Below, in pieces: positions 14,075-59,018 of a stretch of 64,000 nucleotides of DNA (position 1 is its first letter; every line of letters begins with the position of its first letter). The notes beneath the pieces are model-generated. The model worked only from the letters and a program-made list of their open reading frames with translations, was not told the origin of the DNA and made no database searches. The DNA is from the human T2T-CHM13v2.0 reference genome, Homo sapiens, in NCBI RefSeq assembly GCF_009914755.1, contig NC_060946.1; one strand, written 5' to 3'. Made by a program: the position numbers and the translations under genes.

Positions 14075-15972
14075 AGATATAAAAACACACCCTCCACGGT
14101 GGGATCAGATTGCGCGCCTGCTCCGCCCCCACCCCGCCCTCTCCCCGGTGGTGGGGTAGAGGGATGGTGGAAAGGGAACCAAGAGCTAGTTCCCAGAAGT
14201 GTAGGTATCTGGGATTGAGATTGGAGTGGGGCTACACCTCCTTCTCTGTTTTCAGTACCAGCCATAGCTCTGTCACTGTGCCTCTAGTTTCTTTCCTCTT
14301 TGCAGACATTGGCCACTTGTGAAACTAATTGTATTCCCTCTTTGCATTGTCTTCCAGGACACCTGGAACCAGCGTACAGTTCACTGTTAGCAACTGGATA
14401 GAATCGCATGGCAGGAATTTAGAAGAGGAGCTTAATCTCTGAGTCCACATTCCTTCCCCTGGGCCTCATTTTCCTACCTTATTTTATATTTAGTTTTCTG
14501 ATGATGTTCAGGACATCCTTCCAGCCACCTTAACTCTCCTCTTTGTAAGGGACAGGAGGGACAAAGCAAGGTTATACATTCAGAAAGAGCTTGCCTACCT
14601 TCTGCAAGTCTCAGTTTCCTCCCCTATAAAGTGGGCACAAGAATCCCTGCCTTGGAGGGTTTTGTGTGTGTTTCAGGAGATGCTGGATTAATATTAGTGT
14701 CCACCCTATTTCCCACCTCCCCATCCTCCAGGCTCTCTGCCAGTTATGTGATGCAGGCTAGGATGCAAAGGAGATCAACAGCACAGATCACTTTTTCCCC
14801 AGTGCCATTTGTGCTCTGCAGGCCCAGTGGGTGCCCCTACTAGAGCCTTGTACCCTGAGCCCAGTCCCTACCTGCCTTCTGGAAGATGTTGGCTCCAGAA
14901 TTCTCTGCCTCCCTCCTGCAGGCATTGTGGCATTCACAGCTGATTTGCAGAGAGCCCAGATGCATCTCATAAATAAGGAATGTACTGTTCTGCAGGACGG
15001 CTGTGGCGTGGCTGTGTGGGGGTGGGCAGGCTGGAGTAGACAGGAACCACGAGAGGCAGGGAGGACTGTACAGGGGTTGCTGACCAGGTGGAAGATGATG
15101 GGAGCCTCAGAAGGTGTCGTGGGACAGGGTCAGGGAGAGGGCTCTATGCGGCCAGGATCTGGATGCAGATTGTTGAGACTGAAATTTGGCTCAGATCCCT
15201 TCTAGTTGTGTCTGTTTTATCTTCAGTTTCCTTGTCTATAAAATGGGGAGAGATTGTGTGTCCCCGGCATCACTGGACTGTTAATAGCTATTGCATTTAT
15301 AGCATTTATCCCAGAACCTGAAACACAGTAAATGCTCAGTAAGTGTTATTATTTGCCCCAAACTGTCTTAGTGCTTTCCCCAAGAGCTTTGTGTTGTTTG
15401 TACTATGAGGAATAATGAGGGTGGTGTGGGAGTCGGCCTCTGTGTCTGCAGAGAGGACCACAGACCACAGGAATAGAGACAGGTAGATAGGATCAAGGTG
15501 ACAGGAACAGATGTTCAGAGCAAGAGATGAAGACGGCATCATCAACCCAGACAAGCCAGGTAAGTCCCTGAAAGGGGACTGCATTTCTGCAGCCCTTTCA
15601 AGGTGGGCACTTGAGACATTTGATTGGCTTTTAAAGGAAAGACTGACCTTTAGAAGGCATAAGCAGCTGGGGTCCCTGGAGACCCTGGGATGACACCGTC
15701 AGCATGGCTGTATTGAAACGGAGACCTCAGGCAAGCCACCTTTCTTCTCTGGGTCTCTGTTCCATCTATAAAGTGCTTTCTGAGAAGCCCTCCAGAACCG
15801 CAGCATTGGAAGCTTCAAGATTTAGTCATTCTTCTGGCAAACATATGTGGAAGGCCTCCGGGGTAGCAGACCCTTCACCGTGCCCTGGAGATGCTGGGAT
15901 GCGACAAAAAAGTAGGCTTCTCCCATGATGAACCTCACGGGTTAGTTGTGGGGGCGGCGGGGACGTGGGGGG

Positions 15973-22009: not shown

Positions 22010-22830
<821 letters not shown>

Positions 22831-26260: not shown

Positions 26261-28143
26261 CTAGAAGCCTTCCTTCCCAAGTGTCCTTGTCCCCTAACGG
26301 GGAACAGCCTAATTCCCCAAGGCTGGGGTCGAGGGTAGGTCCCAGAGTCCCAGGGCTGGGTTCAGGGATGCAACGCCGCCTGAAGTGTCCCGCATTGGAT
26401 GGATGAAGAGGCTTTACAGCCTGTAATTCTCAAACACAGCCAAGACTCTGGCTGGGATGGGGGGTGAGGTCAGGCAAGGGGAGGATGCTTTAGGAGTCCA
26501 GTGCGAATGGGGATCTTGCAATCATGATTATGAGGGGGAACAAAGACCCTTTCCTTCCGACGACACAAGACACAATTTGGGAGGTGGACCCGCGGACCTT
26601 CTCGGTCCACCAGGTTAGCAATTAACTGGCCAAGCCACGGGCAGAGCCCAGAGGGTCTCGGAACTGGAGGTGGGGGTGGGGCGGTGGGGCAGGGTCCTTG
26701 AGCTCCCCTTCCCTCATACTCAGCCCGCCCCCGACCCAACCCCCCCGAGCCTGCCATTCCTTCACTTCCCAGATGTCCGGCGTCAAATTTGGCTCCAAAA
26801 GGATGGAGAGGGCTGGTAGGTAACTCACCCTCGTTGAAAACAACAGTGACATCAGTTTATGGAGAGGTTACTCTACGCAGGGACGTGCTTGGTGCTTTGC
26901 AAGCGTTATCACAACAGTCCCACGAGGTGGTAAGAAACAACCCCATTTTAAAGATGAAGAAATGGAGATTCAGAGAGGGTTATCGACACCTCCAAGGTCA
27001 CACAGCCAGTGATTGTGAATCCAGATATGTAGGACTCTAAAGCCCATGTTGCATCTCCTAAAGGGTCTGAGGAGATCCCGCAACCCACCAGCTCGATTCT
27101 CTCTACCTCTCCTCGGCTCCAGGACACTCCCTGGAGAGGCTGGGGATTTGGGAAGAAAGGGGCCAGACCTTTCCCCTCTTCCAGCGGAGGGCCCTGGGGT
27201 AGAGAAATTGTTTCTGGGATTGTGCAGGAGGAGGCCTGGGGGGCGCGCCCTGGATTCCCCACCCTCATCCCAGGCTCCGGATCCGAGGCTGCCCGGCGCC
27301 TGGGATTGTTGGCGCGCACACCCCACTGCAGTGCCGCCGCGGGGAAAACGCCCCCACCTGCTGCGGCGGGAGGGGAGGAAGTATGAGAGGGAGGACTGCG
27401 AGAGAACTTGAGGGAACGGCTTTGTTTTTTCTCGGGGCCAGGCTGGGACTGAGCACGGCTCAAAGCAAAACACTTGCTCTGGACTCAGTGCTTTGCAAAG
27501 CGCATTCCCATTTGGGAGCATCTGGGAGCCCCGCGATGGCCCAGGGAGGGAGGCGGGGGTAGACGCAGGGCAGGGATGAGTAATTCCACTTGACAGACAG
27601 GGAAACCTGAGGACGGTGGTTCTCAGACTTTAGGGGCGTTGCTTCCAGTAAGCAGATGTCTGAGCCACGTGGCAAGGAGGATGAGTCAGCAGGTTTGGGG
27701 TGGGGCTGGGTATCTGATGTTTACTCAGACCTCCTCATCCTCATCCTGCAGGTGGGCAGATGCTTGGTTGAGGGAAGAGTGCCCCCACCTCGCCCCTCAA
27801 CTTTCTAGGCAGAATCATCCAGCAGCCTGGGCAAACCATTTCCGGACACTTTGCCAGCTCCTAGCTTTGTGTGGCATTGAATTGATCCCACTCTAAGTTT
27901 GGTTAATTTCATGTTGAAAGCATTTTATGTAAACACCTTCCATGTCCCCCATGCCCGCCTATTTTACTATTTAGTGATCCTTGCCATTGAGAACTGTTCT
28001 GAAATCTACTCATTTTAAGCCTTAACCCTACTCCTTAACAGGGAAGAGTGGTGAAGTCTTCACAGTCCCCCAAAACAACCATAACCCCTTACCGCCAGCT
28101 TTAGGAGAATAATTCTCTATGCTTGCATTAAAAATGAGAATTT

Positions 28144-36615: not shown

Positions 36616-37824
36616 TGAGAGACTGGGGGGATCTCTGAACATGAGTCCCCTCAGATGCAGAATTAGGCTGGGGGGATGTGGGAAGTTGGGGATGGAGGCT
36701 GTGGCCTCATCCTCACTCGCTGTCTTCTCCCCCAGGTGGCTCCATCTGGGCCGCATCTCCAGGACTCCTGGCCTGGACTTCTCTTTGGACCTCGGGTGAC
36801 CTTGGATTCTGGCCACAGTGACTTAGCGGTCAGACTCCGGTGGTTTTCTAGCCCGCTGGGTGACTCCCTGAAGATCTCATCCTCTTCACACCTGTTGGGA
36901 TAGAGCCTCCCATGGATAGGAACTCTTCCTGGTTGATGCTCAGCAGATGACTGATCTGGCTCTGGAGGACAGCTCCAGGGGTATGAGGGAGGCCTGGCAG
37001 CCCACTACTCCCTCCTCACCTGCTCGGGCCCTGCCTGCTGGGCCCTATTGTCTGGGTCTGGGGGCCCTTTCCTGCCCCATGTGAACTTGATTCCTCCTCG
37101 CGTTTCTGCCGGTGACCAGACAGAGCCTGGCCTGGGCCAAGTCCCCACTGACCACACTTTCCCCAAGGCTGGGTCTCAAAGGACCCTACAGGATGGGGAC
37201 AGGAACAAGGATGGGAGTCGGGGAGGGGCTGTCAGGCAGAGGGCAGATGCAGCTCCTCGGGTGCCGCTGGCTGGAGTCCTTTGTCTCCATTTGCTCAGTG
37301 CGTAATTGTCATTTTGTGGGGGACTTCCTTGGTGGGGCTTTTCCATGCTTTTCCTCTCCCTGATGGTTACAAAGAGGAGACAGTCAGGATCTGGGAGGAG
37401 CTGGAGCCTTCCCCCTGTGCTGTTGAACTCTGGGAGGGGCAGCCAGAGGGGCTGAGAGTGCACCATCCTGAAAAGAGAGGGTCTTTAAGAGATAAGATTT
37501 AGGCTAGGGAAATTCACTAGAAAGAGACAGGTGGCCCTGGGTTTTTTTTCCTGCCATCCAAAGGGAACCAGTCTTACCCAAAGGCTTAAGGGGTCACCTT
37601 AGCCCAGTCTCAGGACACTCTTCTCCAATCAGATCGCTGCTTCTAGTTGCACTGCTCCTGGATTCTGTTCTTGGGGAACAGAAGGTGGCAGGACAGGCCC
37701 CACAATCTGCAATTCCAGCTCCCTCCAGAGGGGACAGTCCCAGCGTTTGCAAGAGAGCAGCTTGTGGCCTCCCTTAGGCAAGTTTAAAAGCCAGATGTCC
37801 TTTTTCCCAGAATGCGGAGTGGTG

Positions 37825-38222
37825 TGTACTATTCATCAGCTTGGGCTGCCACAGCACCATGCCAGACTGGATGGCTTAAACATCAGGAATTTATTTTCTG
37901 CCAGTTCTGGAGGCTGGAAAGTCCAGATCAAGGTGTTAAGACTTGGTTTCTGGTGAGGCCTCTCTCCTTGGCTTGCAGGTGGCACCTTCTCACTATGTCC
38001 TCACATGGCCTTTTCTCTGTGGAGAGGGACAGAGAGCATGAGCAGGCTCTGGTGTCTCCTCCTCTTCTTATAAAGACACTAATATCACCATATTAGGGCT
38101 TAAACCTATGACCTCATTTAACCTTAACCCCTTAAAGGTCCCATCTCCAAAAACAGTCACATAGCAGGCTACTGCTTCAACATATGCATTTGGGGGAGGG
38201 GACACCATTCAGTTCTTAACAG
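37825..38222 (-). mobile_element. MLT1 LTR within the MIAT terminal exon region
   Basis: cagttctggaggctggaaagtccagatcaaggtg and tatgacctcatttaacctt...cttcaacatatgcatttggggg motifs. Confidence 0.82.
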
Positions 38223-39993
38223 GGTGGTCACCGCAAACATGGAAAGTCAGAGCCTTCTCCCCTTCAGAATTCCCGCCCCCACCCAGGGATGGGGAAGAGG
38301 AGCAGAGAGGTATGGGAAGCAGACACGGAGAGTGGCAGGTACCATGCTGGGGTGGCTCAGGAGTGCTTCGGAGGACATATGGAACTGGCAGGGCTCAGTG
38401 CAGGGAGGCGGAGGCCCTGGGAGAGCCGTGTCCTGAGAAGGGCCTGGGCTACAACCCTGGGCAAGTTACTTCACCTCTGAGCCTCCGATGCTCTGTGAAA
38501 TGGAAGGAATGTGCTTGCCTGTCAGGTGCAGGGAGAATTCAGTGAGATTGTGTGCCTAGCACAGTGCCTGACTCCCAGTAGGTGCTCAGCAAATGCTCCC
38601 ATCCATCTGGGAGTATAGACTTAGGGTTTATCTATTTTTTTTTTTTTTTTGGCTCTCTGGACTTTAAAACTCAGCATCTTCTGAACCAGAGGCATTTCTG
38701 ATTAGCCCTTCCCTACCTATTTTCCTAGTATCACTCTTTAATCAGCTTGGGGAGGTGGCAGCATTTCATGGCCTCCGTAGTAACTCACAATGCTTCCTGG
38801 GGTATTTAAATTCTACTCTCTCATCAGCACTGAGCACCTACTTTGGGCCCTTTCCCGTGCTAGCCATTTGGGGGAAATATAGGTGAAGAGTGGCTGGGGT
38901 TTGAACCTTTAGGATTTCACAGCCATGCTGGATGGGATAAAACCAGCTCACATGGAGAATCAGAGAATGGGACAGTGCCACAAAACAGTCTACTGAGGCA
39001 CAAGTTCTGAGTGCCTGGGAAGTGGTAGAGAGACCCCAGAGAGGGCTGCTGCAGTCTGGAACAGCTTCCTAGCAAGCTGTACCAAACAGGGCCTTGAAGG
39101 ATGAGAAAGATCTGGCTGAGATGATACCCGACCCTCTAGGGAAATTCTTAAAGTAACTTCTAGGAAATGTCATTGCTCCTTAAAAAAAAAAAAAAAAAAA
39201 AGCAGGTTCTAATTCAAATTCCGCTGCACTACTGAAGTAGTGCAGGACTTATCAGAACCTTTAAAATGCTAATGGCAATTTCAAATACTCAGGGACAGGG
39301 CATAGGATGAAGTGTTCCTTGACTTTTATGGCCGTAGAATCTTTTTCTCATGGAACATCGTTTAGAACTGTGGGAGATGCTAGGCTGGGGTTTCTATGGG
39401 AAAAGTACAGCAGTGATAGAAGATGGCATAATTAGGGTACACTTAGGTGCTTTGTAGCATTGGCTGAAAAGGAAGCAGACCGGGTGGGCGTGGGGGAGTC
39501 TCAACTTGGTTCCAGGAGCCAGGCCAGCTTGATGCGTTTTTTTTTTTTCTAATGGTGGGAGGGCAGGCCAATAGTTGGAGAAACTAGAGGCCTGACAGTC
39601 GGTGATGGAAGAGATGTCTACTAAGCACGGTTGTCAGATCTTTTGCGGAGAGATGCGGGTGTGCGTGTGTCTGTCAGAGTGTAACAGGATCCAGCCCTCT
39701 GGGAAGGGGCTGACCAGAACCAGGCAGGGGGTTTCTGTCTAGGACAAGTAGGGTCCATTTTCAGGGGAGCTGAAATATTTGCAGGGGGTGCTCTGAGACC
39801 CACAGCCAATAAATAGGGAAGCAACATGCTTTTGGGCAGGGTCCATGTGGTTAGGGTTGATTTTGATGGGGCTGGGGGGCTTAGAGTTAGACCCCCTGCC
39901 CTGGTCAGGCCCCACTCCCTGGCTGGTGGGGGCGGGAGGCCTCTGAAGCTGCAGCTGGAGGGGCCGGGGCAGTGTTGCATGGTGTGATTAACC

Positions 39994-40800
39994 TACTAAC
40001 CCAGGGCTCAGCCGGGACGCTGTGGCGTGTGACGAGGTGCCTGGCCTTCTGCCAACCAACTAACCCACTAACCAGGCCCGAGCATGCCCTACTAACCACC
40101 CCCCCGCAGCCAGATCCTACTAACTGTGCAGCTCATGGGCCTTTCAAGGGGCTGGGATATGGGGGCAGCCAAGGCTCCAGAAGGCTCTGCCTATGGGCTG
40201 GGATCTTTGTGCAGACCCACGTTCCAGGACAGAGAATGCAAATAAGACTCACCAACTCTGCCACTTCCTGTTGAGTGAGTTTGAGTAAGTCACCTCACTT
40301 CTCTCAACCTCAGTTTCCTCAGTGGTAGAATGCGAGTTCTGATACCTTACAGGTTGCAGTGAGGATTCCCGTCAATATAAGGGTCTCAGCACATGGCAGA
40401 CACTTAAAAAAAAAAAAAGTATGAGGATGGAGGAAGGCCCCTCAAACCTGGTTGAACACGTCTGCTGCCTAGGCCCTGGCCTCTCTGGGTGTTCTGCACA
40501 CAGATCCTTCTGCCTGGGGCAAGACACTTGGCTTTGAATCCATGTCACTTCCCCACATTCTTCCTCCGTCTCAGCTTTCTTTTCTGTAGGCAGCTCTTTT
40601 GTTCGATTACTAACCCGTCTAACCCCTGGGGTGCCTCAACTGCACCCCGATCATCCCTTAACAAACTAACGGACCTGCGTGCGTTCTTCCTTTTCTCTTA
40701 GCGACTCCTGTGTGTGTCTGCTGAGGTGCCCTGTCCGCTGGTGCTGTGCTCTGACTTACTAACCCAGCCCCTACTAACCCTGTTTTCTCTTCTTACTAAC
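39994..40800 (+). repeat. MIAT: TACTAAC (UACUAAC) branch-point motif cluster of MIAT; SF1/QKI-binding element
   Basis: Perfect TACTAAC starting at 39994, 40090, 40118, 40608, 40757, 40772 and 40794. Near-matches: AACTAAC 40058, CACTAAC 40066, CTAAC 40619, AACTAAC 40664. Confidence 0.95.
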
Positions 40801-41219
40801 CCCAGCCCTGCCGAGCTCTGGGCTCCCCCCGGGGGCTGGTCCCCCTCCTTTTGGCAAGCAGATGACCTGGGGCTACTGGCCCTGTAGACAGATGTCCCAC
40901 TTTGCTGCCCCATATTGGCTGTAAGATCAGAGTCCACTGGGCCAGGTCTAAGGCAGGGGATGGCCCTATTAACAAGACTCAGAGGAGGAAGAGGTGGTCC
41001 TGTGGATGTGGGAGGCTGGACTCTGAGTATGACATCTCTCCTATGTGCAGAAGTCTGGTTGCCACTGGGAGTAGGTGGGACCAGGGAAATCTCTGGGACG
41101 TGAGTGTGGAGGCCTGTTGGTCTAGACTCTAGACTGTGGAGCTCTGAGCTTTTGTGTCCTCTGGAAGGAAGCTGGGGAAGAATCCTCTCCATTGTTAAGT
41201 GACAGGGATAGAAGCTGTC

Positions 41220-41630
41220 CTGCACAGGAAGTCACGAGGGGGGCGTATCCCACGAGGAAGGCAGGAGGGGGCGTGCCCCTCACCGGAAATTAGCAGAGGG
41301 GCGTGTCCCACACCGGAAGTCAGAAAGCGGAGCCTTTCTTACACCGGAAGTCAATGAAGCGGGTCTTTCCTACGCTAAAAACCACTGAGTGGAGTATTTA
41401 GTACACAGGAAGTCGGCCAGAGAAACATTTCTCATATTTGAAGGCCGGAAAGAGGGACATTTCTGACACCGGAAGTCAGTGAGAGGACTCTTTCCCACAC
41501 AGGAAGTCAGCTAGAGAGCCGTCTCCCCTCTCTGGAGCCGAGAGAGGCCGGTTTCCCCCACCGTAAGTAGACGTGGGGCCGTGACCGGAAGTCCTTGGGA
41601 AAGATCCGTCCCATTCCCGGAAGCTAGAGG
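41220..41630 (+). promoter_or_regulatory. MIATNB: Internal ETS-array promoter (probable promoter of MIATNB and/or short MIAT isoforms)
   Basis: Eleven GGAA cores, mostly (C/A)GGAAG, including CCGGAAGT at 41313, 41344, 41469 and 41585. GGGGCGT GC boxes, local CpG enrichment, and a CC|GTAAGT donor at 41563. The MIATNB assignment is from memory of the locus. Confidence 0.75.
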
Positions 41631-42209
41631 GCGTTAGTTGTCGGGTTGAAAAGGGGTGTGGGGAGGGGAAGCAGCTTTACCCCGGGCTCGGAGTTTGCAG
41701 GAGAGAGAAGTGGGGAGCAAGAAGTGAACCTCAGGGGCTCACAGGGTTCCCGCAGATGCTCAGGCCGGCCAGGAATGCATCTCTGGCTCTCTGTTCCCAC
41801 GGACGTCACTGCCTCAGCCAGCCTCCCCCAGAGCCCGCCAGCCGCTAAGCCGGGGCCACACCTGGGGGTGATTTCATGCCTCACCTCCAGTAGGCACCTT
41901 GGTTTCTTTGGGCTAATCTCTGGCTCCCTTGCGCTAACTCTTGCTCTCACCCAGCTAATCCCTGCCTCACCCTGACTGCCCCAGGGGCTGACCACTAACA
42001 ACCAACCTGGCCCTGTCTGGGGGTTCCAGGCTCCTGGCCTGGCCCTGACCGGTTCTTAATTAACCTTTCCTTCACCTTGACTAACTCCTGCCTTCCTGGT
42101 CTGTTCCTTTCAGCAGAAACTAATGGTTTGTGGATTTTTTTCTGACTAACAACAGGTCTAACATTCCTCGTTACTGTTAACAGCTTGGATGTCGGCATGG
42201 CTGGGAAGG

Positions 42210-42300
42210 GGCTAACACAGCTTTGAACTTGGCTAACACAGGTTTGAACTTGGCTAACACAGGTTTGAACTTGACTAACACAGGGAAAAGCATAGCTAAC
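42210..42300 (+). repeat. 21-bp tandem repeat GGCTAACACAGGTTTGAACTT (3.5 copies plus an in-phase fifth CTAAC)
   Basis: Units at 42210, 42231, 42252 and 42273; CTAAC at 42212, 42233, 42254, 42275 and 42296. Confidence 0.93.
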
Positions 42301-45028
42301 AATTTTGGGCGTGGTGGCTGCTCTGAGTCAGAACAATCAGAAGTCGGTAAAGATGGTAGTTTTCTAAAGGAGGTGCCAGGGCTCTGGTGTGGACCAGGCC
42401 TGATGGAGCAGTGGTACCCACCAAGGTGGGGTCAGAAGTATAGCCAGTCTTGCAAGGTTTTGGCCATTGGGCATATCTTCACTCCTCATAGTCTGCATTT
42501 GGTTTCAGTTCTTAAAAATATATAGCCTTATAGCTACAGTAGTTTGCACAAGTAGATGCAGCTCTTATAAACCTTAAAATACCTGTCTGGTGTCTACAGA
42601 GCATATGCCATTTTGTATAGAGTCACCCTTCCCCAGGCCAGGGCCTAGAGTCTTCATTTTGGGGACTTTGTGTTTTGGAAGTTCTAGGACATAAAGCTTT
42701 AGATCAGAGTATTCAGAAGGGTTATAACTCCGTCAGTCATTTACATGTTAGTAGTATAAATTATCTGAGCTTCCTGTTCTAACTTTTAGCTCTTCTAGCA
42801 TAAACTCTTCTGTGCAATTTAGCTGCACCGAGGAAACGGGAGTTTTTCTGGAAGGGACTTTTGATCTCTTTAGACTGAGGGAACGTCCTTTGGGAGTAGA
42901 GGGGCAGGGAGCATACGCAAGGGATTCCAGGTGCAGGTAAAAGGTGGCACTAGTTCAAGGTTTTGCTGACTCAGTCTGGTAGTCAGAGTCTGCAGGAGAA
43001 GACAGTTCAAGGCAGGGCCTGGAGGATTGGATCAGTTTAGGGACAGGTCAAAGGCTGGCTTAGAGACCTTAGAGGCAGGTTGCTTGGGTCGTTGAATGCT
43101 AGTCTGGTGCTGAGAGCCCTTTTCTCTGGCAACTGTGGACTCAGAGCTAACCAATTGTAGTTGGCAGTGGGGGTGAAGGGTGATCCAGAGGCCTGAGCTG
43201 CAGAGGGCACAAGAGAGAAAAGATGTCTTAGAAAGAGCTTTGAGAACATGCCTTGGCTGCTGGCAGGGACCTTGGATGGGGTAGTCTACACCCGGAAGTG
43301 CCTGCCTGCCATCCTCTAGTGGCTGCCTTGCTCCATTTCACTCAAAGCAGGAAGCTCACATCTCCTATTCCTGAAACTCCTCTTTGTTTAACTGCAAAGA
43401 CTTGATGCTGCTAAGGATCTACTATGTGCCAGGCACTGCTCTGGGCGCTGGGACCTGCACCTGGGCTTTTTCGTCATGGTGCTTTTATAGCCTAGTGGGA
43501 GAGTTGGTGAAGTAGATAGTGATTCAGTGAGATGGGTGTTATGATTGGTCAGGGGTCTGTGGGAGCACCAAGGAGACAGACAAGATTGATGTGCACCTAC
43601 TCTGTGCCAGGCGTGTGCCAGGCATTGGGGATGTAGTGGTAGTTAAACACCATTTGGTCTTCAGGAGCTTTAATTCTAGTGTGTTGGGTGCAGGGGGGTG
43701 GAATGGGGACAGAGAGACACCTAATCCACCCTGTGGTGGCTTTCTGGAGAGGGAGGCATCTAAGCTGAGCTGTGGCTGGGTGGAGTGTGGGTGGGGATGA
43801 GTTCCGGGCAGCGAGAGTGGTGGACACCAGTTTCTGGGGATCAGAGAGGATCCAAAGAGGTTCTGGAAGGTTCATGTGGAATGTAGCAAGAGATAGGAGA
43901 CATGGACATGGTGCCGGGTCTGGTTGCCAAGAAGTTTAGATTTTATCCTTAGGCCTTGGGGAGCGACGGATATGATCTGAGAAAGGGAGTTAGTGGATTT
44001 GAGTTTTAGGCTGGCCATTTGGCTTTTCCAGCCCAGGTGGAACTCAGAGGAGTTTGCAATGGCCTCTGGCCACATTTTAGACAACTGAGCAGAACTTTTT
44101 GAAACTAGGAAGACCCTTTGGTCCATCTTTTGATAAACAGAATCCATACATGTCTACCCCAGTTGGAAGTATCTCTGCAATGACTGGAAAGTAAAGAGGA
44201 CCAAGGTGAAAATAAAGGCTCGGAAGGGGAGCAATCTTGAAAACATGTCATCCCATGGTGGTGGGAAGTCCCTGGAGAAGATCAGGGGAAACACAGTCAT
44301 AGGCTGCAAGTCTATAAGATAATTCCATTGGGGAGGGAGCCCATTTGTCATGCATGGCTGCAAGGGGCAGATACAAGTGTGGAGTAAGCTTGCAAGAGCT
44401 GATCCTGGTCCCAGAGAGGGAAAAATATGCCTTGGTGGGTAATGAACCTTTTGTTCCCAGAGGCAGAAGGATTGGGACTAGGCCAACATAGAGATTGGCG
44501 ATGGTTGTGAGATTCTAAGAGTGTGTGTGCATCTTGACAATATTAGAGGAGGCTGAGCCCAAGCAGGCACATTCTCTTCGACCCCTCCCTCATTCAGTCT
44601 GCTTTGGAGTCTACTGAACATCAAGCTTGCTATGAGCAGGATCTTAGAGCTGAGGAATTGGCCTCCCAATCCGAACAGGTGTTATAATCCTTTCTTAATA
44701 GGTTGTGCTGTGGACCCAATGTGAGGGCTGTGCTGGTGTAAATGGTGACATATTGAGCTGGGGGGATGCTTTCGGGGTGGGGGGACTGGTTCCATTCCAT
44801 CAAAGGCCCTCTTGAGAGTCTATCCAGGGACCCATTGTTTTACTTTAACAGACCAGAAAAGATGTTTGTTTTCCATGTCATTACCCCCAGGGGATACCGA
44901 ATGTGTGGGTAGAAATTTCTCTGTAGATTAAAAATCAGATTTTTACATGGATTCAACAAAGGAGCGTCACTTGGATTTTTGTTTTCATCCATGAATGTAG
45001 CTGCTTCTGTGTAAAATGCCATTTTGCT

Positions 45029-45034
45029 ATTAAA
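45029..45034 (+). terminator. MIAT: MIAT polyadenylation signal (ATTAAA)
   Basis: ATTAAA preceded by TGTA (CFIm) elements at 44996 and 45010, close to where unique sequence gives way to L1/Alu repeats. A second ATTAAA lies at 44927. Confidence 0.75.
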
Positions 45035-45319
45035 AATCAATTCACGCTGGAAACATGACTGTGGCCTATGAAGCAGAAGGGACGTGCTGTTTAGGGGAGA
45101 GGGGGCAGCCAGTGGCATTCTCAAGGAGCAGGGGTGGGCTCTCTCGGTGAGTCAGCCTTTCCTCAAGAGTGACCCTAGAAGTCAATATAATAGGGTATTT
45201 TATTTTTTAATTTTGGTAAAATAATCATAACATAAAACTTCACCACCATAATAATTTCTAAGTGAACATCTTGGTGGTATCATTCACATTGTTGTGCAAC
45301 CATTATCACCATTGGTATT

Positions 45320-51285: not shown

Positions 51286-51944
<659 letters not shown>

Positions 51945-56025: not shown

Positions 56026-56717
56026 TCTTCCTTAGTATGGAATTAGGTTTAAGGGAAGGGGTCCTACTGGCCAACTTGAGTATTTAGGGGAGTTGATGGC
56101 CATTGTTTGTACTGTAAACAGGGAACTAGTTATGAATGAAAGTGGTGCTGAGAGAGGAGAAAGGATGAGGGATACAGAAAGTAGTACATCTTAGATTTCC
56201 TGGTACATCTCAGTTCCTGTTTCCAGGCCACTCCTGAAACCTGACTGCATTCCAGCTCCTTGGTTCTCTGAGTTATCTCTGCATCTTTGTAATAATTATT
56301 CTTCCCCCCACCTCCCTTGCTTGGGCTAATTTGAATGAGTCTGTTACTTTCAACCAAAAGTATCCCAGTGAATTTAGAGCCCAAGAGATGTCCAATGTCA
56401 CACTGCAGGCCAATGAAAAACTATCCTCTTTCTGCTGACTCTCAGATGCAAAGCCTTTTGGGGGAAGAAAGAAACAAGGAAGAAAAAATAACTCACATTT
56501 ATTGAAGGCCTACTGTGTGTTAGGTGCTTTGCAATGTCATGTATTTAATGTTTACCAGGCTGGGAGGTAGATTTTATTTTATTAGTTTACAGATGAGGAA
56601 ACCGAGGCTCAGATATGTTGGATAACTTGTCCAGAGAAGAATTGGGGGTTGTATTTAATTATTTTGGCAAATTCCATGATTGCTGAGCACCCCATGTTGT
56701 CTCTTAAAAAGAGGTGT

Positions 56718-57026
56718 GGCCGGGCGTGGTGGCTCACGCCTGTAATCCCAGCACTTTGGAAGGCCGAGGTGAGCGGATCACAAGGTCAGGAGATCCAGAC
56801 CATCCTGGCTAACATGGTGAATACCCGTCTCTACAAAAAATTAGCCGGGTGTGGTGGTGGGCGCCTGTAATCCCAGCTACACAGGAGGCTGAGGCAGGAG
56901 AATGGTGCGAAGGCAGGAAAATGGCGTGAACCCGGGAGGCGGAGCTTGCAGTGAGCCGAGATCGCGCCACTGCACTCCAGCCTGGGCGACAGAGCGAGAC
57001 TCCGTCTCAAGAAAAAAAAAAAAAAG
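56718..57026 (+). mobile_element. AluY with a small internal duplication
   Basis: AluY consensus; aggcagga(g/a)aatgg is duplicated at ~56892-56925; TSD-like aaaaagaggtgtg on both sides. Confidence 0.88.
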
Positions 57027-59018
57027 AGGTGTGCTGCTTTGCTGTAGATATCAGCATGAGGCTGTTGAAAGATAATGAGGTAGCCAGTGGGGACCCTGGG
57101 AAGAAGTCAATCTTCAGATTGGTGATCAGCCTCTTGAAGTCCTGTAGAGAACAGACAGAACCAAGAGTTGAGTCTTGACCAAGTCTCCCCCACCTTCAAA
57201 AACCATCTCCTTCTAGAACCCACTCACTGCTTTCTGATTGCTTCAGGACTCCCAGGACTCACCCAGACAGCCCCAGCTCCAGCTTCTGGAGACATCTCAT
57301 TAGTGGGTTCTCTGTAGCCATTCCATCCTTAGGAAAACCCAGGGCAAAACCATATCTTCCAAAAGAGGCTCTGCAGTGGAGAAATCCCAGTGGACCAAGG
57401 TGCATGATCTGCTTTGAAGCGTTCAGGGATATTTGTCTTCTCCCATTGGGCTAGTGGTGGCGAAAGGTGCACCAGGCTCCCCTTAATGTACACATCTGGA
57501 TTGAACTGAGATTCCCACAGCAGATTTTCCAATGAGGAGTGGATTGCAACAGGGAAATAAATATAATTATTTATATGCATGCTGGAGAGTTTCAACAGGT
57601 ACCAACAGATATATTCAGGAGTCAGGAAACCTTGGGAAATTCCTATAGTCCCAAATTCGAATCTCTAGGTCAAGTTAGCTGACCATAAAAAATCAGCCTG
57701 GGAGGTGTTTTAACACTGCAGTTTCCTGAGCCTGACTTCTGGGGATTCTGATTCCTGTGGCATATTCGTTCTTTTGAGAAGCTTCAGAGAGAATCCTGAC
57801 AACCAGCCAGATTAGAGATACACAAGAAACATTATCACATTAAAGGCACTAAAAAGTCCTGCAACAAAGACACCCATGACATTTCATTGAACCAGTTTAT
57901 CAAAGTTAAACAAACACAGGTCCCTCTTTCTCTATGTTTTGATATAATACCTGTTTTTACAAGGTCTACTGCTCAGAGAGCTTACCAACTTTCCCGCTTA
58001 ATAATTATACACTAATATCATGAATCCAGTGATTTTTTTCATGCCCTTCCTATTTTATAGCATTGGGTTATTCTCTCCCTGAAGACAGGAATAGTATCTG
58101 TGTTATTTGTAACATCCTCCACATAGAGTCTGAGGAAATGAGTGAGTCTCTTAAAATTGTCTTTGAATAGGGGACGTGGTCCTCTGCCCACCAATAGGAA
58201 CATTGATAACAGGGTAGGAGAAAGATTTAAAGCAGCTGGTCATAGTAGGAAAGCCTGCAGAGCCACATTTGGTTGACAGTTGTGGATGTTGAGTGCCAGC
58301 AGTCCAGCTGCTTCTCTTCTGAGCTGTTTCTCCACTGCTCTGAGATCTGCCTCTTAACAAACTTGGTCCCCAGGTATGAGCCCTCCTGAGACATTTGGTT
58401 AAGAAGAGGAGTTTCCCATTTCTCTCCTTCTCCTCCTTTCGGCCACCAGTGGATTGAAGGGAGCAGTGCTGAGGCCATTTAAATGGGCTTCTCTGCAGAA
58501 CGAACAAGCCCTTGTGTTGGAAATTGGGTTAAATTCAGCATGCATAACCACTCACAATGGCTCTTTACACCCCAGGAGCAGTAAGATCCCACTAATCTTC
58601 AGTCAAAACAATTAGAGCATGAAGGGTGGTGTATTCATCCCAAAGGCACTGGGCAACTGGGAGTTAGGAAGGGGTGGGACCACCCACATTCGGGGCTTTG
58701 ACTTTCCAGCCGCAATGACAAGGCCAAAAGACCCGGGGGATTCGGAAAGCGGGTCTGGTCAGAGAAGTTGCTTCAGTCCATCTGTCTCTTTCTCCACGTG
58801 GTGGACTCTTAGCAAGTGCGAGGCACTTTACATGCACCGTGTCATTGCATCCTCACATTAGCTTTGTTACCATCATCTCCTATTACAGCTGAGGAAACCG
58901 AGGTGCACAGAGGTTAAATGATGCACTCATCAGAGCCCAGCAGCAAATAGATGGCACAGTTAAATCAGTCTGGTTCAAGAAGAATTTAATAAAGGTACCA
59001 TTCAAAGAGGTGCTGACA

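What the first reader, a model, noticed from the sequence alone, without database searches (positions are those of the whole stretch)
39994..42300. Three-part module in the MIAT terminal exon: branch-point cluster, ETS promoter array, second branch-point cluster
Seen: within 2.3 kb there are seven perfect TACTAAC (39994-40800), a phased ETS array (41220-41630) and ten further CTAAC (41934-42300), all on the + strand. Known: MIAT UACUAAC repeats bind SF1, and ACUAAY is the QKI element. Inference: the internal promoter sits between the two clusters. Full-length MIAT would carry both, whereas RNA started at ~41.4-41.5 kb would carry only the degenerate second cluster; that RNA could be MIATNB pre-mRNA or a ~3.6-kb short MIAT ending at 45055. 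Promoter choice could then switch the splicing-factor decoy load, with a broadly active ETS-driven version alongside the tissue-restricted one. I do not know of this architecture being described as a unit.
Basis: partly seen in the sequence, partly recalled or inferred. Interest (0 to 1): 0.85.

Follow-up and report, generated by a model that had tools for sequence, protein, structure and literature searches.

The report
MIAT decoy clusters flanking MIATNB promoter
Two already-known clusters of branch-point-like motifs in the last exon of the human non-coding RNA MIAT flank a small repeat-built CpG island that serves as the annotated start, first exon and splice donor of the neighbouring gene MIATNB, and the proposed promoter-controlled decoy switch has no support.

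Summary
There are seven TACTAAC (39994-40800), ten CTAAC (41934-42300) and a phased array of ETS motifs (41220-41644), all on the + strand and all far denser than background.

Both motif clusters are already known. The seven human repeats are tabulated in Tsuiji 2011. The clusters also coincide with Rfam families MIAT_exon5_1, _2 and _3. Five of the ten CTAAC in cluster 2 come from a 21-bp minisatellite just outside the conserved region.

The ETS array is a diverged 31-bp minisatellite of 14 units. It is single-copy in the genome and is the only CpG-island-like segment of the terminal exon. The ETS core is its best-kept block. It holds the RefSeq MIATNB start (41418), the whole of exon 1, and its donor. 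The donor is a repeat unit whose core reads GTAAGT instead of GGAAGT.

In the only annotated transcript from this promoter, cluster 2 is intronic (intron 41563-85897). None of the 20 RefSeq MIAT transcripts starts here.

No capped-end, binding or cross-species data could be reached with these tools. Interest is modest: known decoy clusters plus a neat, apparently undescribed repeat-born promoter, exon and donor.

The parts
39977..40125 (+). Cluster 1a: three TACTAAC plus two further ACTAAC. It corresponds to Rfam MIAT_exon5_1.
   Evidence: 157.4 bits against a gathering score of 100.
40252..40341 (.). Fragment of an old interspersed repeat lying between the two halves of cluster 1. The name MIR-like is recalled, not tested.
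   Evidence: 10 other dispersed places in the genome at 76-93% identity.
40608..40823 (+). Cluster 1b: four TACTAAC, one ACTAAC and one TCTAAC in a pyrimidine-rich stretch. Its 3' part (40739-40823) corresponds to Rfam MIAT_exon5_2.
   Evidence: 108.7 bits against 75; pyrimidine fraction 0.675 over 40560-40830.
41220..41644 (+). 31-bp minisatellite of 14 diverged units with consensus core CCGGAAGTC. It is CpG-island-like and is the putative MIATNB promoter.
   Evidence: It is single-copy in the genome.
41418..41562 (+). MIATNB exon 1 (RefSeq NR_110543.1), made entirely of units 7-12 of the minisatellite.
41563..41568 (+). MIATNB exon 1 splice donor GTAAGT. It sits at the position of the ETS core in unit 12.
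   Evidence: The matching acceptor AG lies before exon 2.
41829..42205 (+). Cluster 2a: five CTAAC plus one ACTAAT. It corresponds to Rfam MIAT_exon5_3, and all five motifs are present in the family consensus.
   Evidence: 377.7 bits against 90.
42210..42300 (+). Cluster 2b: a 21-bp minisatellite contributing five CTAAC, just outside the Rfam region.
   Evidence: period 21, 3.6 copies, 96% matches, family D3.
45029..45053 (+). ATTAAA signal and the annotated MIAT 3' end. MIATNB transcription must read through this site.

Best explanation
Two unrelated kinds of element lie side by side.

(1) Clusters 1 and 2a are the conserved branch-point-mimic regions of the MIAT/Gomafu terminal exon. In the full-length nuclear RNA they offer high-affinity UACUAAC/ACUAAY sites to SF1 and QKI. 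This is published for the UACUAAC repeats; for cluster 2 it is inferred from the motifs and their conservation.

(2) Between them lies a diverged 31-bp minisatellite whose units each carry an ETS-type site, C(C/A)GGAAGT. It behaves like a small intragenic CpG-island promoter. ETS-family factors would bind the repeated sites and start TATA-less transcription (inferred). The annotated MIATNB RNA starts in unit 7. Its 145-nt first exon is repeat sequence, and its donor is unit 12, where the core reads GTAAGT (shown by sequence and annotation). Splicing then jumps 44 kb to exon 2, past the MIAT poly(A) site. Cluster 2 is removed as intron.

The promoter therefore produces a different RNA, not a reduced-load MIAT.
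For: Clusters:
- three Rfam MIAT families match above their gathering scores.
- Tsuiji 2011 lists 7 repeats in human MIAT and shows SF1 binding to the mouse repeat.
- secondary reports of QKI and SF1 binding.

Array:
- It has 14 units with mean pairwise identity 0.48. The ETS core is the best-kept 9-column block, at 11.1 of 14 units against 7.6 of 14 for the other 21 columns.
- The core CpG is kept in 7 of 14 units. Four units have the alternative ETS form AG, and only one has TG.
- CpG o/e is 0.75, against 0.09 in the left flank and 0.23 for the whole exon. It is one of 6 CpG-island-like segments in the 64 kb and the only one in the terminal exon.
- The RefSeq start, exon 1 and donor all lie inside it. 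The intron is a canonical GT-AG intron.
Against: - No capped 5' ends, ETS-factor occupancy or expression data could be seen.
- The start rests on a single RefSeq model, whose 5' end may be incomplete.
- RefSeq lists no functional element over the array.
- The array is not part of any Rfam conserved region, so it may be lineage-restricted.
- ETS-like words in ~30-bp minisatellites are common and usually lie far from gene starts. Of the 21 other loci I grouped's hits, 19 lie more than 2 kb from any annotated gene start.
- A younger ETS minisatellite in an NXN intron also has high CpG (o/e 1.09). CpG richness alone is therefore weak evidence.
- Binding of SF1 or QKI to cluster 2 is not shown in any text I read.
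Confidence: 0.7

Rival explanations
1. RNA started in the array often stays unspliced and ends at the MIAT poly(A) site. This would give a ~3.6-kb short MIAT carrying only cluster 2, so promoter choice would tune the SF1/QKI decoy load.
For: By coordinates, an unspliced RNA running from 41418 to 45053 would hold cluster 2 only. MIATNB transcription must pass the poly(A) signals at 44211, 44927 and 45029, so some termination there is plausible (this is inference). Cluster 2a is conserved.
Against: None of the 20 RefSeq MIAT transcripts starts in the array. The strong donor 145 nt from the start is used in the annotated RNA. Cluster 2 has no TACTAAC and only 4 ACTAAC plus 1 ACTAAT. Tsuiji 2011 found weaker SF1 binding when UACUAAC was degraded to looser branch-point consensus forms. 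A decoy effect needs abundance, for which there is no evidence. No paper was found.
Confidence: 0.12
2. The array is a neutral minisatellite that happens to contain GGAAGT. On this view the MIATNB model reflects low-level noise transcription or a 5'-truncated cDNA, with no selected promoter function.
For: A triple phased CMGGAAGT pattern hits 56 places, mostly minisatellites, against reversed-pattern controls of 3 and 70. Only 2 of the 21 loci I grouped from those hits lie within 1 kb of a gene start. The array is absent from the Rfam conserved regions. There is no RefSeq functional element on it.
Against: The units are old (mean identity 0.48), yet the ETS core is the best-kept block and CpG o/e stays at 0.75 beside a flank at 0.09. 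An annotated start, exon and a used donor lie inside the array.
Confidence: 0.13
3. The array acts at the RNA level inside full-length MIAT. It would be a purine-rich GGAAG-repeat platform for SR proteins such as SRSF1, placed between the SF1/QKI clusters.
For: The array is purine-rich (pyrimidine fraction 0.435) between pyrimidine-rich clusters (0.675 and 0.605). A review states that Gomafu interacts with SRSF1. That SRSF1 prefers purine-rich motifs is recalled, not tested.
Against: There is no stable structure signal (z -1.79). The array is not in an Rfam conserved region. CpG retention points to a DNA-level property. No mapping of SRSF1 to this part of MIAT was seen.
Confidence: 0.05

Closest known systems
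Gomafu/MIAT tandem UACUAAC repeats that bind SF1 (Tsuiji et al. 2011; Rfam RF01875, RF01876, RF01877)
   Same: It is the same locus and the same motifs. The count of seven repeats in human MIAT is identical. The clusters match the three Rfam conserved regions of the last exon.
   Different: Nothing differs for cluster 1. For cluster 2, the passages I read do not describe it as a second cluster. Its human 3' half is a 21-bp minisatellite outside the Rfam region.
ETS-driven (GABP/ELK-type) TATA-less CpG-island promoters, including intragenic orphan CpG islands used as alternative or nested promoters (recalled knowledge)
   Same: C(C/A)GGAAGT sites lie within tens of bases of the annotated start. 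The sequence meets CpG-island composition. The island lies inside another gene's transcribed region.
   Different: Here the whole island is a 31-bp minisatellite. The repeat also supplies the first exon and the donor. Factor binding and capped ends are untested.
RNA decoys whose load depends on isoform choice, for example NEAT1 short and long forms, NORAD repeat units, and DMPK CUG repeats (recalled; the DMPK/MBNL analogy is drawn in PMC11483029)
   Same: Repeated protein-binding motifs in a nuclear RNA are proposed to titrate splicing factors.
   Different: In MIAT no isoform with a different motif load is annotated. All 20 RefSeq transcripts carry both clusters.
Other human minisatellites with an ETS word in each unit, for example the 33-bp array in an NXN intron (L002 593-949)
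   Same: The period is about 30 bp, each unit holds ACCGGAAGT, and CpG o/e is high.
   Different: The NXN array is younger (units 87% alike, against 48% here) and lies 45 kb from any annotated gene start. There is no detectable sequence relationship.

Membership tests
MIAT/Gomafu conserved exon regions (Rfam RF01875, RF01876, RF01877) | Match to the covariance model at or above the gathering score | tested here: met
   157.4 against 100, 108.7 against 75, and 377.7 against 90 bits, all full-length.
MIAT/Gomafu SF1-binding repeat | Multiple exonic UACUAAC on the transcribed strand | tested here: met
   7 on the + strand inside the exon 36736-45053. Cluster 2 has none.
MIAT/Gomafu SF1-binding repeat | Physical binding of SF1 | not testable with these tools
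   Published for a mouse repeat oligonucleotide (PMC3116199 passages). Nothing was seen for human cluster 2.
QKI response element (bipartite ACUAAY with a nearby UAAY; definition recalled) | ACTAAY followed within 1-20 nt by TAAY | tested here: met
   7 bipartite matches, 5 in cluster 1 and 2 in cluster 2. Binding was not tested.
CpG-island promoter | GC above 0.5 and CpG o/e above 0.6 over more than 200 bp (criteria recalled) | tested here: met
   GC 0.565 and o/e 0.75 over 425 bp. The CpG-island-like windows merge to 41201-41750.
CpG-island promoter | A transcript start inside the island | tested here: met
   NR_110543.1 starts at 41418. This is annotation only; no capped-end data were seen.
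ETS-driven promoter | ETS consensus sites close to the start | tested here: met
   CAGGAAGT at 41406-41413, ending 5 nt before the annotated start. There are seven MGGAAGT sites in the array.
ETS-driven promoter | Occupancy by ETS factors, and loss of activity when the sites are mutated | not testable with these tools
   No ChIP or reporter data were reachable. No paper was found.
Minisatellite / VNTR | Head-to-tail units of 10-60 bp | tested here: met
   period 30-31, 14 units.
Minisatellite / VNTR | Copy number varies among people | not testable with these tools
Functional 3' splice site (for the branch point + pyrimidine tract + AG mimics) | Use as an exon start in annotated transcripts | tested here: not met
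   no RefSeq exon starts after the AGs at 40701, 40805, 41954 or 42113.

The most novel reading that the evidence does not exclude
A single 31-bp minisatellite, possibly inserted or expanded in a restricted lineage between two conserved decoy regions, created a complete 5' gene module inside another gene's exon. The module comprises a CpG-island ETS promoter, a first exon and a splice donor, and the donor is an ETS core that reads GTAAGT.

A fraction of its transcripts may end at the MIAT poly(A) site. That would give an ETS-driven short MIAT carrying only conserved region 3.

In full-length MIAT the same unused donor, followed 370-550 nt later by conserved mimics of branch point, pyrimidine tract and AG, could assemble stalled early spliceosomes. 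These could help hold MIAT and its bound factors in the nucleus.
Probability: 0.12. Interest if true: 0.6.

Novelty: new member of a known kind. Interest (0 to 1): 0.3.

Why it matters
MIAT is a much-cited model of a splicing-factor decoy RNA. Its motif clusters are already catalogued, so re-finding them adds nothing.

Two points are useful.

First, the MIATNB promoter, first exon and donor are all built from one diverged ETS-bearing minisatellite inside the MIAT terminal exon. This is a compact example of how a tandem repeat can give rise to a nested gene start. It also has a practical consequence. Probes, primers, antisense oligonucleotides or CRISPRi guides placed after 41418 in the MIAT exon may also report or perturb MIATNB pre-RNA.

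Second, half of the apparent second cluster is a human 21-bp minisatellite outside the conserved region. Motif counts for MIAT therefore depend on lineage-specific, and possibly variable, repeats.

Tried and rejected
- Copies of the array elsewhere in the genome. The only match was the array itself, so it is not a detectable transposon-derived or multi-copy element. Cluster 2 is also single-copy.

- Whether ETS minisatellites in general mark promoters. Exact double and triple phased patterns, combined with distance to gene starts, showed that most such arrays are far from gene starts. The motif array alone was therefore rejected as evidence of a promoter. The MIAT array itself does not match the triple pattern, because no three consecutive units are perfect.

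- An RNA structure in the array. The fold z-score is -1.79, and 1 of 100 shuffles folded as well. This is not convincing.

- Other known RNA families in the spacer. There were none; the only extra match was WT1-AS_5 at E 0.68, which is chance. The ORF list uses bacterial start rules and showed nothing relevant.

- Literature on MIATNB. Twenty-four papers hold the name. The five I opened concern methylation or SNP associations, not the promoter. Searches gave nothing relevant.

- Cross-species comparison of the array. No mammalian genome other than this reference is reachable, so the age and conservation of the array remain untested. The figures of Tsuiji 2011 (repeat positions) are not held. 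Supplementary files were not requested, and any that list isoforms or CLIP peaks could bear on the short-MIAT question.

- Barry et al. 2014 (QKI and SRSF1 binding). I did not read it. It is cited only through.

Full report
OBSERVATION

The sequence is as described.

TACTAAC occurs 10 times in the window. All seven + strand copies lie at 39994-40800. Shuffles gave 2.89 +/- 1.76, and none of 100 reached 10.

CTAAC and ACTAAY are not enriched over the whole window. CTAAC gives 84 against 91 expected, and ACTAAY gives 47 against 40. The + strand copies are nonetheless strongly clustered. Twenty-one of 48 fall in 39994-42300, which is 9.1 per kb against 0.44 per kb outside. Eleven lie in 39994-40800, ten lie in 41934-42300, and none lies in the 1.1 kb between them. 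The − strand shows no comparable cluster; its maximum is 3 in any 2.3 kb.

MGGAAGT gives 19 against 17.3 expected window-wide, but seven + strand copies sit at 41226-41592. TACTAAC(C) and (CC)GGAAGTC(A) are among the most repeated 7- and 8-mers of the 8.3-kb terminal exon.

THE TWO MOTIF CLUSTERS

Rfam places three curated families on these stretches: MIAT_exon5_1 at 39977-40125, MIAT_exon5_2 at 40739-40823, and MIAT_exon5_3 at 41829-42205. All three are full-length matches above the gathering score.

Cluster 1 is therefore conserved regions 1 and 2. Between them lie about 600 nt that include a fragment of an old interspersed repeat at 40252-40341, which has 10 dispersed relatives at 76-93% identity.

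Tsuiji et al. 2011 (PMC3116199; I read passages and Table 1) list exactly 7 TACTAAC in human MIAT NR_003491. They show that a mouse repeat oligonucleotide pulls down SF1 and delays splicing in vitro. They also report that UACUAAC binds SF1 better than degraded branch-point forms.

The first half of cluster 2 is conserved region 3. All five human CTAAC there are also present in the family consensus. The first reads ACUAAC in the consensus but GCUAAC in human.

The other five CTAAC (42212-42300) are copies of a 21-bp tandem repeat that begins 5 nt after the Rfam match ends. It has 3.6 copies at 96% matches.

Cluster 2 has no TACTAAC. It holds 4 ACTAAC and 1 ACTAAT. I count 15 ACTAA on the + strand across both clusters (10 + 5), and 17 in the whole terminal exon. 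A 2024 preprint (PMC11483029, passage read) already speaks of 16 ACUAA elements in MIAT and of possible SF1/QKI trans-competition.

THE ETS ARRAY

The stretch 41220-41644 is a 31-bp minisatellite. Autocorrelation peaks at lags 31, 62 and 94. Tandem Repeats Finder reports periods of 30 and 31. Fourteen units align.

The units are old, with mean pairwise identity 0.48 and a range of 0.25-0.77. The best-kept 9-column block is the ETS-type core CCGGAAGTC. It is kept in 11.1 of 14 units on average, against 7.6 of 14 for the other 21 columns.

At the core CpG, 7 units keep CG. Four units have AG, which gives CAGGAAGT or GAGGAAGG. Only one unit has TG.

The array has GC 0.565 and CpG o/e 0.75. The left flank is at 0.09, the right flank at 0.28, and the whole exon at 0.23. 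The array is one of six CpG-island-like segments in the window and the only one in the terminal exon. It is single-copy in the genome. No RefSeq functional element or masked repeat of 100 bases or more covers it.

RELATION TO MIATNB

RefSeq NR_110543.1 starts at 41418. That is 5 nt after the CAGGAAGT of unit 7. Its exon 1 (41418-41562) is made wholly of units 7-12.

The donor at 41563 reads ACC|GTAAGT. It aligns with the ETS core of the other units, and one letter distinguishes GTAAGT from GGAAGT.

Exon 2 lies 44 kb downstream. It is preceded by a pyrimidine tract and AG, so intron 1 (41563-85897) is a canonical intron.

Cluster 2 begins 371 nt into that intron. The MIAT poly(A) signal at 45029 and the annotated MIAT 3' end at 45053 also lie inside it.

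The placement of a promoter between the clusters is supported by annotation and by composition. The functional switch is not supported.

- The only annotated RNA from this promoter loses cluster 2 on splicing.
- All 20 RefSeq MIAT transcripts start at 15028 (6 transcripts), 25846 (6) or 26176 (8), and all carry the whole exon 36736-45053.
- An unspliced RNA ending at 45053 remains possible, because transcription must pass three poly(A) signals. I found no evidence for it.
- Searches for an internal MIAT promoter, for ETS control, or for the module as a unit found nothing relevant.

CAUTIONS ON THE PROMOTER READING

Repeated motifs inside a tandem repeat are copies, not independent events. Across the genome a triple phased CMGGAAGT pattern hits 56 places, mostly minisatellites, against reversed-pattern controls of 3 and 70. 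Of the 21 loci I grouped from those hits, only 2 lie within 1 kb of an annotated gene start: MON1B at 62 bp and PCSK6-AS1 at 164 bp. That count treats the X and Y pseudoautosomal copies as separate loci.

An exact ACCGGAAGT pair at 20-24 nt spacing occurs at only 3 places in the genome. One is this array. The other two lie in a 33-bp minisatellite in an NXN intron. That array is also CpG-rich (o/e 1.09), but it is young, with units 87% alike.

The case for function therefore rests on three things together: the age of the MIAT array combined with its retained core and CpGs, the annotated start, and the used donor. It does not rest on the motif count.

OTHER READINGS

An RNA-level role for the purine-rich array is conceivable, since a review reports that Gomafu interacts with SRSF1. 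It has no support from structure (z -1.79) or from the Rfam conserved regions.

Several CTAAC are followed by a pyrimidine tract and a first AG 17-43 nt from the branch adenosine. These AGs are at 40701, 40805, 41954 and 42113. By my simple criterion 5 of 21 motifs inside the module qualify, against 4 of 63 elsewhere in the window, with Fisher P 0.039. They look like complete 3' splice-site mimics, but none is used as an exon start in RefSeq. In the main text of Tsuiji 2011, polypyrimidine and U2AF appear only in the reference list.

VERDICT

The clusters are already known. The middle element is the annotated MIATNB start, here shown to be a diverged ETS minisatellite with CpG-island character that also supplies the exon and the donor. 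The decoy-switch idea is untested and weakened by the splice structure.

The following rest on recall, not on a call: the ETS consensus, the CpG-island criteria, the QKI bipartite element, the MIR name, the SR-protein motif preference, and the comparison systems.

Noticed in passing
window 40664-40701, 40772-40805, 41932-41954, 42079-42113: Branch-point motifs are followed by a pyrimidine tract and a first AG 17-43 nt away. These look like complete 3' splice-site mimics. By a simple criterion 5 of 21 motifs qualify here, against 4 of 63 elsewhere in the window (Fisher P 0.039). None is an annotated exon start.
   Followed up: partly
window 42210-42300: A 21-bp minisatellite (3.6 copies, 96% matches) supplies half of cluster 2. 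Its unit resembles 42071-42085 inside the conserved region at 80-87% over 15 nt (family D6). This hints at a local duplication of a branch-point segment.
   Followed up: partly
window 40252-40341: A fragment of an old interspersed repeat, with 10 dispersed relatives at 76-93% identity, lies between the two halves of cluster 1. It is followed by an A-run at about 40406-40418.
   Followed up: partly
window 22054-22179: Three ACTAAC lie on the + strand within 126 nt of an AT-rich stretch of a MIAT intron. The meaning is unknown and it may be chance.
   Followed up: no
L002 593-949 (chr17, NXN intron): A 33-bp minisatellite has ACCGGAAGT on the − strand in its units. The units are 87% alike and CpG o/e is 1.09. 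It lies 45 kb from the nearest annotated gene start. It is the only other place in the genome with an exact ACCGGAAGT pair at 20-24 nt spacing.
   Followed up: partly
window about 40670-40703: A differentially methylated region of 4 CpGs, tied to the HIV reservoir in CD4 T cells, is tabulated at hg19 chr22:27068060-27068092 (PMC11896887 table row). By offset arithmetic it maps to four CpGs that overlap one of the branch point + tract + AG mimics, not to the ETS array. The mapping assumes the assemblies are colinear here.
   Followed up: partly
window 41252-41267 and 42085-42100: A 16-nt stretch of the array is 94% complementary to the pyrimidine tract of the 42113 mimic (pair I2). This may simply reflect purine-run against pyrimidine-run composition.
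   Followed up: no
window 27201-27650, 51301-51800, 56601-57100: Further CpG-island-like segments by a 400-bp sliding test. The last two lie in MIATNB intron 1, downstream of the MIAT 3' end, and have no gene start annotated on them.
   Followed up: no
window 41220-41310 and 41802-41808: The first three array units also carry a GGGGCGT(G/A) box after the ETS core, which resembles a GC/GT box (by recall). A GACGTCA word, resembling a CRE (by recall), lies just before conserved region 3 (family D8).
   Followed up: no
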